UHGV virus genome: UHGV-0139945
From: a virus
Length of the DNA: 26,445 nt
Reading direction: 5' to 3' (one strand)
Shown here: positions 4,558 through 4,935 of the stretch, piece by piece
Numbering within the stretch: the first letter of the stretch is position 1
How the letters are laid out: the number at the start of each line of letters is the position of its first letter
Notes under the pieces: model-generated
Database searches by the model: none
Seen by the model: only the letters and a program-made list of their open reading frames with translations
What the model was told of the DNA's origin: nothing
Position numbers and translations under genes: made by a program

Positions 4558-4935
4558 CTATTTCTTGAGTGCCTCAGCATAAGCCTGAGCGCTCTTTTGT
4601 GATGACTCCATTATGTCATCAGTCAGCGTTTGCTGGCCCCATTTGGTGACCTTACCATTAACGAAAGTTATAACCAGTCGATCGTTAGCCAATTGTTCGT
4701 TATCAATGATTGTGTAGCCATAGAGAGCCTTATTCCAGTATATCCAGCGCTCACGTTCCTGGTTCACATCCGTCCTGCGTGGTGACCCCATGATCTGCAT
4801 GACGTCGTTTTTGTTCATTCCAAGAGATAAAAGCATTGATCTCTGGTTGTAATCTACTTTCTGGACTGTTGGTGCACATGCGGTAATTGTTAAAGCTGAA
4901 ACACCAATTAATGCTGCAAAAAGTAACTTTTTCAT
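4558..4935 (-). CDS. Lipoprotein, BamE/SmpA-OmlA-like fold (moron in the lambda bor position), 125 aa
   Basis: Start taken at internal ATG 4935 (MKKLLFAALIGVSALTITAC...) giving a signal peptide with lipobox-like ITAC; GGGGATAGGGAC precedes the ATG; LSLGMNKNDVMQIMGSPRR...WIYW...ITFVNGKVTKW resembles BamE-type domains (recollection). Confidence 0.65.
   Translation of the reverse strand: MKKLLFAALIGVSALTITACAPTVQKVDYNQRSMLLSLGMNKNDVMQIMGSPRRTDVNQERERWIYWNKALYGYTIIDNEQLANDRLVITFVNGKVTKWGQQTLTDDIMESSQKSAQAYAEALKK

What the first reader, a model, noticed from the sequence alone, without database searches (positions are those of the whole stretch)
4558..4935. BamE/SmpA-OmlA-like lipoprotein as a moron in the lambda bor position
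Between the spanins and cos, where lambda carries bor, this phage carries an unrelated lipoprotein: signal peptide plus lipobox (ALTITAC) and a domain resembling BamE-type outer-membrane lipoproteins (LGMNKNDVMQIMGSPRR...WIYW...ITFVNGKV). It is followed by its own terminator, so it may be expressed from the lysogen as a conversion factor (envelope integrity, serum resistance or superinfection exclusion).
Basis: partly seen in the sequence, partly recalled or inferred. Interest (0 to 1): 0.45.

Follow-up and report, generated by a model that had tools for sequence, protein, structure and literature searches.

The report
Prophage lipoprotein cassette with BamE fold
A Klebsiella-type prophage carries a small self-contained gene cassette for an outer-membrane lipoprotein shaped like the bacterial BamE protein. 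The same cassette recurs next to the tail tape-measure gene in many other phages, so it is a mobile add-on gene; I infer, without a direct test, that it changes the host envelope, possibly to keep other phages out.

Summary
Window 4558-4935 (minus strand) encodes a 125-aa lipoprotein with an n-region, an h-region and the lipobox ITAC. Ala at +2 predicts outer-membrane sorting. Its mature part scores above the Pfam BamE (SmpA/OmlA) threshold, and the structure model matches BamE, OsmE, BLIP and a T6SS immunity protein about equally. It is not a BamE orthologue and not Bor.

The gene lies after the holin, endolysin and spanins and before the terminase genes. A strong intrinsic terminator follows it, and its GC content dips to 42%.

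In 96 related loci the gene travels as a cassette. DNA similarity between unrelated phage backbones runs from the ribosome-binding site to the terminator and stops there. An extended -10-like motif (TGnTAnnnT) sits about 38 nt upstream of the start in 36 of 53 non-redundant copies, against 2.4% expected by chance.

Only the window's clade sits in the bor-like position. In 18 of 23 clades the gene lies between the tail-assembly chaperone and tape-measure genes, the site of the HK97 gp15 superinfection-exclusion moron.

The function is untested. My favoured reading is a prophage-expressed periplasmic binding protein that excludes other phages or remodels the envelope. This is a new member of a known kind, of moderate interest.

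The parts
4558..4935 (-). Coding sequence of the 125-aa lipoprotein (stop TAG at 4560-4558). The mature domain has a BamE/SmpA-OmlA fold, followed by a C-terminal helix (residues 104-124).
4876..4935 (-). Signal peptide and lipobox, MKKLLFAALIGVSALT-ITAC. The Cys20 codon is at 4878-4876. Residue +2 is Ala, so the +2 rule predicts outer-membrane sorting.
   Evidence: The sequence itself. Cys20 is invariant and Ala21 is in the nearly invariant (90% or more) class in the 26-sequence alignment. Among the fetched loci the +2 residue is Ala in most and Thr or Met in a few, never Asp.
4936..4947 (-). Ribosome-binding region GGGGATAGGGAC, directly upstream of the ATG. It is shared with cassettes in other phage backbones.
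   Evidence: DNA similarity to the tail-operon copies starts at -18 to -10.
4965..4973 (-). Extended -10-like promoter motif TGTTAATCT (TGn + TAATCT), 38 nt upstream of the start. A weak -35-like TTGCGG lies at 4994-4989 with an 18-nt spacer.
   Evidence: TGnTAnnnT occurs between -60 and -20 in 36 of 53 non-redundant upstream regions, against 2.4% expected; all but two of these lie at -24 to -41, mostly -34 to -41, and the other two at -49. The canonical two-hexamer scan found nothing here, so the site is inferred and not demonstrated.
4515..4541 (-). Intrinsic terminator: AACCUCGC-UUCG-GCGGGGUU followed by a U-run, starting 16 nt after the stop codon.
   Evidence: The terminator is 26/26 identical in L046/L047, where the coding DNA is only about 76% identical. 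Stems differ in both arms across loci in a way that preserves pairing.
5004..5043 (-). Stable interrupted hairpin with no U-run, at the upstream edge of the roughly 108-nt block conserved with the gene in close relatives. Found widely in lambdoid prophages downstream of lysis genes. Its role is unknown, and it may not belong to the cassette proper.
   Evidence: -30.4 kcal/mol, z -5.8
5043..5285 (-). Upstream neighbour: an 80-aa ORF (phrog_5415, unknown function). It is one of several alternative cargo genes found at this spot in relatives.
5282..5693 (-). Overlapping spanin pair, o-spanin 5282-5620 and i-spanin 5418-5693. This is the end of the lysis cassette.
   Evidence: phrog_1275, phrog_1026
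4305..4490 (-). Downstream neighbour: a 61-aa ORF (phrog_8618). It starts just after the terminator and, in nearly all close relatives, lies at a fixed distance from the lipoprotein gene and from TerS/TerL.
3490..3993 (-). Small terminase subunit (DUF1441). This is the start of the packaging and head module.

Best explanation
This is a moron: a self-contained transcription unit consisting of a promoter-like extended -10 element, a ribosome-binding site, a 125-aa lipoprotein gene and an intrinsic terminator. It was inserted by horizontal transfer into the late region of a Klebsiella-type lambdoid prophage, between the lysis genes and the terminase genes.

Shown here: the protein has a type-II (lipoprotein) signal peptide and a mature domain with the BamE/OsmE/BLIP fold. 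The gene and its terminator move together between unrelated phage genomes.

Inferred: the cassette is transcribed from its own promoter in the lysogen, and that transcript stops at the terminator. Antiterminated late transcription would read through the terminator. [quoted passage not shown]

Most likely function, by analogy only: the small binding domain attaches to a conserved envelope or incoming-phage component and blocks a step of infection after or at receptor binding. That would be superinfection exclusion. The analogues are the HK97 gp15 moron, which occupies the same chaperone/tape-measure site that most members of this family occupy, and the exclusion lipoproteins Cor, Llp and the mEpimmI Lpp proteins.

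My confidence is about 0.85 for the anatomy (moron cassette encoding an outer-membrane BamE-fold lipoprotein) and about 0.35-0.4 for exclusion as the function.
For: Lipoprotein signal and invariant Cys.

Pfam BamE scores above the gathering threshold.

A terminator follows the gene in nearly every non-redundant locus, including inside tail operons. The window terminator folds at -15.4 kcal/mol.

Cassette boundaries: blastn similarity between the window and tail-operon copies runs from -18/-10 to +419/+422 and ends at the terminator. The terminator is 26/26 identical even where a second gene has been inserted in front of it.

TGnTAnnnT occurs upstream of the start (mostly at -34 to -41) in 36 of 53 non-redundant upstream regions, in 13 sequence variants, against 2.4% expected. 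A canonical TTGTAA-18-TATGAT promoter is found at the same place in L054.

GC is 42-43% over the gene and 50-56% in the flanks.

[quoted passage not shown] A 33%-identical homologue in phage mEp013 lies at the chaperone/tape-measure junction on the opposite strand with its own terminator.

Precedents from the literature: HK97 gene 15, the first moron described, lies between the chaperone and tape-measure genes, is expressed from the prophage and blocks genome injection (PMC3594210). Lipoproteins encoded in the structural cluster of mEpimmI phages exclude phages when expressed from a plasmid (PMC11893012).
Against: There are no expression data. The two-hexamer promoter scan finds nothing upstream in the window, and the -35 element is weak.

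The gene has the same orientation as the late operon, so read-through late expression alone could account for its expression.

No member of this family has been tested. The mEp013 homologue is not the Lpp tested in PMC11893012.

There is no hit in PADLOC defence models. PHROG 18614 is 'unknown function'.

The cassette occurs in phages with at least two unrelated tail-tip types and different tape-measure families. That argues against a tight pairing with one receptor-binding protein.

The mature domain is very conserved from Klebsiella to Pseudomonas and Alcaligenes (28 invariant residues). This fits a conserved host target as well as, or better than, a phage target.
Confidence: 0.45

Rival explanations
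1. BAM modulator. The protein acts as a phage-encoded BamE paralogue that docks on BamA/BamD in place of, or beside, host BamE. It would change outer-membrane protein assembly, and with it receptor display, permeability or envelope robustness of the lysogen.
Against: Identity to E. coli BamE is only 25% over 88 residues, and hhalign probability is 46%. No NCBIfam BamE model is hit at E<=1. A profile of the family finds no solved BamE at a significant E-value. BLIP-like proteins, OsmE and a T6SS immunity protein match the model as well as BamE does. The family has an extra C-terminal helix and its own set of invariant charged motifs (RRTDVN, RERW, DNEQLA.DRL). Its carriers presumably keep their own chromosomal bamE; I did not check this.
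Confidence: 0.15
2. Host-fitness conversion factor of the Bor type. The lipoprotein benefits the lysogen directly, for example through serum or complement resistance, or osmotic or envelope-stress tolerance as suggested by its resemblance to OsmE. Other phages would not be affected.
For: It has moron architecture and occupies the position that bor holds in lambda. Bor is a prophage-expressed outer-membrane lipoprotein that raises serum resistance (cited in PMC3594210). OsmE is the structural match with the highest sequence identity (26%). The family is common in Klebsiella and other host-associated Enterobacterales.
Against: There is no similarity to Bor beyond the signal peptide. The family also occurs in prophages of plant and environmental bacteria (Pectobacterium, Brenneria, Lonsdalea, Erwinia, Stutzerimonas, Alcaligenes), where serum resistance is irrelevant. 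The function of OsmE itself is unknown. Nearly all close homologues are phage-borne, and they sit beside tail genes.
Confidence: 0.2
3. Late-acting accessory protein. The gene is mainly expressed by read-through of the late operon during lytic growth. It would act then, for example by masking receptors in the dying cell and its debris so that progeny are not lost (as Llp does for T5), or by modulating envelope disruption.
For: The gene has the same orientation as the late genes in every locus except mEp013. In the window it follows the spanins directly. No canonical promoter is detected in the window.
Against: A strong terminator that travels with the gene and a conserved promoter-like motif would not be needed by a plain late gene. 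The mEp013 homologue is transcribed against the tail operon. Placement in tail modules in most clades argues against a lysis-specific role. A possible anti-SD pairing would lower translation from read-through transcripts (speculative).
Confidence: 0.15
4. Immunity-type inhibitor. Like BLIP or the T6SS immunity protein BtiO, the domain would neutralise a periplasm-acting enzyme or toxin, such as a tail-associated peptidoglycan hydrolase, a colicin or tailocin component, or a T6SS effector.
Against: The argument rests on fold resemblance alone. No candidate toxin or effector gene is linked to the cassette. Sequence identity to the structural matches is 12-26%.
Confidence: 0.1

Closest known systems
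HK97 gp15 moron (superinfection exclusion; Cumby et al. 2012, reviewed in PMC3594210)
   Same: It is an independent add-on unit with its own promoter and terminator inside the late or tail operon. It lies between the tail-assembly chaperone and tape-measure genes, which is where 18 of 23 clades of this family sit. Its product is an envelope protein expressed from the prophage.
   Different: gp15 is a small YebO-like inner-membrane protein, not a lipoprotein, and shows no sequence or fold relationship. In the window itself the cassette lies between the lysis and terminase genes, not at the tape-measure site. Exclusion by this family is untested.
Lambda Bor (outer-membrane lipoprotein moron between Rz and cos)
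   Same: It is a small prophage-encoded outer-membrane lipoprotein in the same genome interval (after the spanins, before cos and the terminase genes), and it is a moron.
   Different: It is an unrelated protein: there is no Pfam Lambda_Bor hit, and BLASTP matches only the signal peptide. From my own knowledge of lambda, bor is transcribed against the late operon, whereas this gene is co-oriented with it.
Exclusion lipoproteins Cor (phi80/N15/HK022), Llp (T5) and Lpp021/Lpp010 of mEpimmI phages (PMC11893012)
   Same: They are small phage lipoproteins targeted to the outer membrane and encoded within or beside structural (tail) genes. They block infection at the receptor or entry step.
   Different: No sequence relationship was detected: the PHROG assignment is phrog_18614, unknown function. 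The BamE-like gene of mEp013 (mEp013_85) is a different gene from the tested type-C Lpp. No receptor is known.
BamE (SmpA/OmlA), lipoprotein of the beta-barrel assembly machine
   Different: It is phage-borne rather than chromosomal. Identity is 25%, no NCBIfam BamE model is hit, the family has an extra C-terminal helix, and it has its own invariant motifs.
OsmE, BLIP/BLP and T6SS immunity protein BtiO (other members of the same fold)
   Different: Sequence identity is 12-26%. BLIP proteins are tandem two-domain secreted proteins of Gram-positives. No target is known here.

Membership tests
Bacterial lipoprotein (Lgt/LspA/Lnt pathway) | N-terminal signal peptide with a positive n-region, a hydrophobic core and the lipobox [LVI][ASTVI][GAS]C | tested here: met
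   MKKLLFAALIGVSALT-ITAC. The Cys is invariant in 26 homologues. Lipoboxes are present in all clades.
Bacterial lipoprotein (Lgt/LspA/Lnt pathway) | Actual lipidation and outer-membrane localisation | not testable with these tools
   The only support is the +2 rule. Residue +2 is Ala in most copies and Thr or Met in a few, never Asp.
Pfam BamE / SmpA-OmlA domain (PF04355) | Profile score at or above the gathering threshold | tested here: met
   25.5 bits against a threshold of 23.2, residues 36-98. PF04355 is precomputed for most homologues.
Pfam BamE / SmpA-OmlA domain (PF04355) | BamE-type fold of two short helices packed on a small antiparallel sheet | tested here: met
BamE proper (component of the BamABCDE complex) | Orthology to BamE: a hit to curated BamE protein-family models and close sequence similarity | tested here: not met
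   No NCBIfam BamE model is hit at E<=1. Identity to E. coli BamE is 25%. The family profile against PDB gives E 1.9 for BamE.
BamE proper (component of the BamABCDE complex) | Chromosomal housekeeping gene, one per genome | tested here: not met
   The homologues fetched with flanks (50% identity or more) lie almost entirely in phage or prophage late regions; a few are on short or unclear contigs.
BamE proper (component of the BamABCDE complex) | Binds BamA POTRA5 and BamD | not testable with these tools
   No multimer modelling or experiment was available.
Moron (Juhala/Hendrix definition, as summarised in PMC3594210) | Own transcription terminator | tested here: met
Moron (Juhala/Hendrix definition, as summarised in PMC3594210) | Own promoter | tested here: inconclusive
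   An extended -10-like motif is strongly enriched upstream of the start, mostly at -34 to -41, and L054 has a canonical promoter there. The two-hexamer scan finds none in the window, and there is no transcript evidence.
Moron (Juhala/Hendrix definition, as summarised in PMC3594210) | Base composition differs from the flanks | tested here: met
   GC is 42-43% over the gene and 50-56% in the flanks.
Moron (Juhala/Hendrix definition, as summarised in PMC3594210) | An addition relative to related genomes; horizontally mobile | tested here: met
   The same cassette occurs in three different genome positions and in several backbones. The related E. coli F5 prophage has overlapping T and tape-measure genes with no insert at the tail site. 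The gene is absent from all but 2 of 50,697 phage records.
Moron (Juhala/Hendrix definition, as summarised in PMC3594210) | Expressed from the repressed prophage | not testable with these tools
   No transcriptome was available.
Lambda Bor / Iss family | Sequence similarity to Bor (Pfam Lambda_Bor) | tested here: not met
   There is no such Pfam hit at E<=1.
Known anti-phage defence systems (PADLOC-DB) | Match to a defence-protein model | tested here: not met
   0 families at E<=0.1.

The most novel reading that the evidence does not exclude
The BamE-fold lipoprotein may define an uncharacterised, widely mobile family of prophage superinfection-exclusion or entry-blocking factors in Enterobacterales, Pseudomonas, Alcaligenes and Vibrionaceae. 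It would work from the periplasmic face of the outer membrane against a conserved target. The target could be the tape-measure/tail-tip channel of incoming siphophages or a conserved host machine such as BAM. This would explain why the cassette keeps landing beside the tape-measure gene and why its mature domain is so strongly conserved across distant hosts.
Probability: 0.3. Interest if true: 0.6.

Novelty: new member of a known kind. Interest (0 to 1): 0.38.

Why it matters
Morons are a main way in which prophages change their hosts, yet most remain unassigned. This one is clean and experimentally tractable: a 0.45-kb unit with defined ends that occurs in many Klebsiella and other enterobacterial prophages. 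If it excludes phages or alters the outer membrane, it bears on phage-therapy host range in Klebsiella. It would also be a second, unrelated occupant of the classic HK97 gp15 site.

There is a practical annotation point as well. RefSeq and IMG name these genes 'outer membrane protein assembly factor BamE', which overstates what is known. They share the domain but are not BamE orthologues.

Tried and rejected
(1) Direct experimental support from the mEpimmI study. The 33%-identical mEp013 gene (mEp013_85) looked like it might be the tested 'type-C Lpp'. Its residue 2 is K, whereas the paper reports a K>G substitution at position 2 of the mEp013 lipoprotein, and tblastn finds it in no other mEp phage. 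It is therefore a different, untested gene.

(2) Sequence searches against solved structures, with the single sequence and with the family profile, gave nothing significant. Only fold comparison linked the protein to BamE and BLIP.

(3) NCBIfam gave no family and PADLOC gave none.

(4) Literature searches for phage BamE/SmpA/OmlA lipoproteins found no functional study. The 'BamE' hits in PMC12042878 were the author name Bamert. One search was rejected for syntax.

(5) Canonical promoter scans of the window were negative. The same tool also missed the window terminator, probably because the stem can be extended into the U-run.

(6) I looked for a link between lipoprotein clade and a single tail-tip or tape-measure type. 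The cassette occurs with at least two distal-tail types (the c7/c8 module, whose E. coli F5 counterpart is annotated DUF1833/TipJ, and a second set of distal-tail genes, c23/c26, that I did not annotate) and with several tape-measure families. No exclusive association emerged.

(7) More distant relatives (E 1e-39 to 1e-20) include at least one non-phage chromosomal context (L099), and automatic names are again only 'BamE'. They gave no functional clue.

(8) Rfam and tRNA scans of the window were empty.

Full report
**What is there**

On the minus strand of the window an ORF runs from ATG 4935 to TAG 4560-4558 and encodes 125 aa. It begins MKKLLFAALIGVSALTITAC: two lysines, a hydrophobic core and the lipobox I-T-A-C. 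The residue after the Cys is Ala, so the enterobacterial +2 rule (established knowledge) predicts Lol-dependent sorting to the outer membrane.

The mechanical ORF reaches GTG 5019 (153 aa). In close relatives a 1-nt indel changes that extension to 130 aa, while the signal-peptide start is kept (ATG here, GTG in most 98% relatives). The 125-aa form is therefore the real one.

**Surroundings**

Read on the minus strand, the order is:
- lambda-family holin, 6576-6929
- GH108 endolysin with a PG_binding_3 domain, 6031-6573
- a DUF7940 holin-like gene, 5690-6034
- overlapping i- and o-spanins, 5282-5693
- an 80-aa ORF of unknown function, 5043-5285
- the lipoprotein
- a 61-aa ORF, 4305-4490
- small terminase (DUF1441), 3490-3993
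- large terminase, 1382-3490

This is the interval where lambda carries bor. The protein is not Bor: there is no Pfam Lambda_Bor hit, and BLASTP aligns only the signal peptide. I did not map cos; I infer it lies in the gap 3994-4304.

The nearest relatives are Klebsiella-type lambdoid prophages. One viral contig is 100% identical to the window over about 12 kb (L018). Two of 5,426 complete E. coli genomes carry 98%-identical copies, and RefSeq names them 'outer membrane protein assembly factor BamE'.

**Family and fold**

- Pfam BamE (PF04355) scores 25.5 bits against a gathering threshold of 23.2.
- PHROGs places the protein in phrog_18614, unknown function.
- NCBIfam gives no BamE model.
- hhalign of the family against E. 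coli BamE gives 46% probability.
- Sequence searches of the PDB give nothing significant.
- An AlphaFold model built on 26 homologues has mean pLDDT 82.8. It shows two short helices, a small sheet and an extra C-terminal helix at residues 104-124.
- Foldseek against the PDB ranks N. gonorrhoeae BamE, OsmE, the Bacteroides T6SS immunity protein BtiO, E. coli BamE in BAM complexes, and BLIP.
- Phage proteins with the same fold are already annotated as SmpA/OmlA or BLIP-like, for example in Pseudomonas phage B3.

The domain and fold assignment is therefore sound. The protein is no closer to BamE than to other members of the fold, and it fails the tests for BamE orthology.

The family itself is tight. 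The 26 aligned sequences, down to 50% identity, share 28 invariant residues, including RRTDVN, RERW, DNEQLA.DRL and KWG.Q..DD. A scan of 1.84 billion cluster representatives finds only 28 clusters at E<=1e-10.

**The cassette**

I fetched 96 related loci, called their genes crudely and clustered the neighbours. Four results follow.

1. A GC-rich hairpin with a tetraloop and a T-run lies within about 35 nt after the stop codon (4-35 nt) in nearly every non-redundant locus, even inside tail operons (confirmed by the scanner). Stems differ between loci in a paired way: CCTCGC/GCGGGG, CCTCGC/GCGAGG, CCCGC/GCGGG, CCCAC/GTGGG, CCCTGCC/GGCGGGG. The window terminator (4541-4515) folds at -15.4 kcal/mol.

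2. DNA similarity between the window and copies in quite different phage backbones runs from -18/-10 relative to the start codon to +419/+422, which is the end of the terminator, and then stops. In L046/L047 a second lipoprotein gene has been inserted after the first. There the terminator, 26/26 identical to the window's, follows the second gene, although the coding DNA is only about 76% identical.

3. An extended -10-type motif TGnTAnnnT lies between -60 and -20 of the start codon in 36 of 53 non-redundant upstream regions, mostly at -34 to -41. It occurs in 13 sequence variants, against 2.4% expected for a 41-nt window. Several copies without the TG have good -10 hexamers at the same place, and L054 has a canonical TTGTAA-18-TATGAT promoter there. 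In the window the motif is TGTTAATCT at 4973-4965, with a weak -35-like TTGCGG at 4994-4989. The two-hexamer scanner reports nothing there, so the promoter is inferred and not shown.

4. GC falls to 42-43% over the gene, against 50-56% in the flanks.

Together these features match the definition of a moron as summarised in PMC3594210.

**Where the family usually sits**

Copies at 95% identity or more all lie in the window's arrangement. They keep a near-constant distance to TerS and TerL downstream (and, in nearly all, to the 61-aa ORF), while the distance to the spanins upstream varies from 456 to 5,274 nt because different cargo genes are present.

Every copy below 90% identity whose neighbours could be read lies in a siphophage tail module. 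A few lie on short or unclear contigs (L012, L078, L085, L095). PHROG scans identify the neighbours as major tail protein, tail-assembly chaperones, tape-measure proteins and minor tail proteins.

Counting clades at 90% identity:
- 18 of 23 lie between the chaperone genes and the tape-measure gene.
- 2 lie directly after the tape-measure gene. A third, Flyfo siphovirus Tbat2_3, lies further downstream of it, after three other small genes, at least one with its own terminator.
- 1 (the window's) lies at the lysis/terminase junction.
- The remainder are mostly truncated contigs.

A 33%-identical homologue in coliphage mEp013 lies at the chaperone/tape-measure junction on the opposite strand, with its own terminator. 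A close relative of the window phage in E. coli F5 has overlapping T and tape-measure genes with no insert at that site. The chaperone/tape-measure junction is the site of HK97 gene 15, the first moron described. That gene is expressed from the prophage and blocks genome injection by HK97 and HK75 (PMC3594210).

**Mechanism**

Shown:
- the lipoprotein signal
- the BamE/BLIP fold
- a mobile unit consisting of gene plus terminator

Inferred:
- transcription from the cassette's own promoter in the lysogen, stopping at the terminator
- read-through by antiterminated late transcripts
- lipidation and outer-membrane anchoring with the domain facing the periplasm

The function is not known. The fold is repeatedly used as a small protein-binding module: BamE on BamA/BamD, BLIP on beta-lactamases, BtiO on a T6SS effector.

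I favour superinfection exclusion at the envelope, at about 0.35-0.4, for three reasons. The family shares its usual site with HK97 gp15. Cor, Llp and the mEpimmI Lpp lipoproteins provide precedent; the last are encoded inside the structural cluster and exclude phages when expressed from a plasmid (PMC11893012). And close homologues are almost exclusively phage-borne.

Against this, no family member has been tested. The mEp013 homologue is not the tested Lpp. The cassette occurs with several tail-tip and tape-measure types. The very strong conservation across gamma- and beta-proteobacterial hosts fits a conserved host target at least as well.

The rivals are a BAM-modulating BamE mimic, a Bor/OsmE-like fitness factor, a late-acting accessory protein and an immunity-type inhibitor. 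Each is set out with its evidence in the rivals section.

**Novelty and verdict**

What this analysis adds:
- the exact cassette boundaries
- the conserved promoter-like element
- the finding that the bor-like position is atypical and the chaperone/tape-measure junction is the family's usual home
- the point that the database name 'BamE' is a domain-level label only

I found no functional study of phage BamE-like lipoproteins in the searchable literature. This is a new member of a known kind (a moron-encoded envelope lipoprotein) and is of moderate interest.

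Noticed in passing
window 5004-5043 (minus strand): A stable interrupted 17-bp hairpin, GGCAUUACAGCAGGCA...UGCCUGCGAUAAUGCC (-30.4 kcal/mol, z -5.8), with no U-run. It starts at the last base of the upstream ORF's stop codon. The same 40 nt occur at 95-100% identity in about 120 complete E. coli genomes, including a prophage in DH5alpha (probably phi80-type) and a Nissle 1917 prophage, downstream of the lysis genes. It looks like a conserved module-boundary element of lambdoid late regions. Its function is unknown.
   Followed up: partly
window 5043-5285 and the corresponding interval in L003-L045: The interval between the spanins and the lipoprotein is a cargo hot spot. 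The spanin-to-lipoprotein distance varies from 456 to 5,274 nt among relatives at 95% identity or more. Most carry an 81-aa DUF2560/phrog_571 gene; the window carries an unrelated 80-aa phrog_5415 gene instead.
   Followed up: partly
L006, L046-L050, L053 (about 8380-8700); L011, L075, L077 (about 7560-7990): Second, unrelated lipoprotein genes sit beside the BamE-like one in some tail modules. One is a 107-aa gene (phrog_19981) that overlaps the BamE-like gene's stop codon, with the shared terminator displaced to after it. The other is a 131-aa gene (phrog_2320) directly upstream in Stutzerimonas-type prophages. The chaperone/tape-measure junction seems to collect lipoprotein genes.
   Followed up: partly
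window 4936-4975 (minus strand): In the predicted fold of the leader, UCUGUCCC pairs with the ribosome-binding sequence GGGAUAGG. UCUGUCCC lies between the -10 element and the expected transcription start. It would therefore be present only in read-through late transcripts, which could favour translation from the cassette's own promoter. This is a speculative idea from one fold prediction.
   Followed up: no
L004 4584-6919 (E. coli WP2-S18-ESBL-08 prophage): An IS66-family element (ISEc22, transposase frameshifted) is inserted between the lipoprotein terminator and the 61-aa ORF.
   Followed up: no
L001 3300-5520 (Flyfo siphovirus Tbat2_3): A row of small add-on genes lies between the tape-measure gene and the distal tail genes. 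It includes a YafO-type toxin gene and ends with the SmpA/OmlA lipoprotein, which is followed by two tandem terminators. The scanner finds seven terminator-like sites in 2.4 kb, five of them on the coding strand at or between gene ends.
   Followed up: partly
window 4515-4541: The terminator scanner misses this strong terminator in the window but finds its homologues in other loci. The likely reason is that the stem can be extended by A-U and G-U pairs into the U-run, which leaves too few T in the tail window. This is a caution for negative results from that tool.
   Followed up: yes
L002 5001-5375 (phage mEp013, gene mEp013_85): Within the phage collection searched, mEp013 is the only mEp phage with a BamE-like lipoprotein. 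In PMC11893012 it is also the one LamB-dependent mEpimmI phage that Lpp010 did not exclude. This may be coincidence.
   Followed up: partly
window 7071-8123 (minus strand): A 350-aa ORF lies directly upstream of the holin gene in the late region. Its sequence contains a DPPY motif, so it looks like a DNA methyltransferase. I did not scan it against any family library.
   Followed up: no
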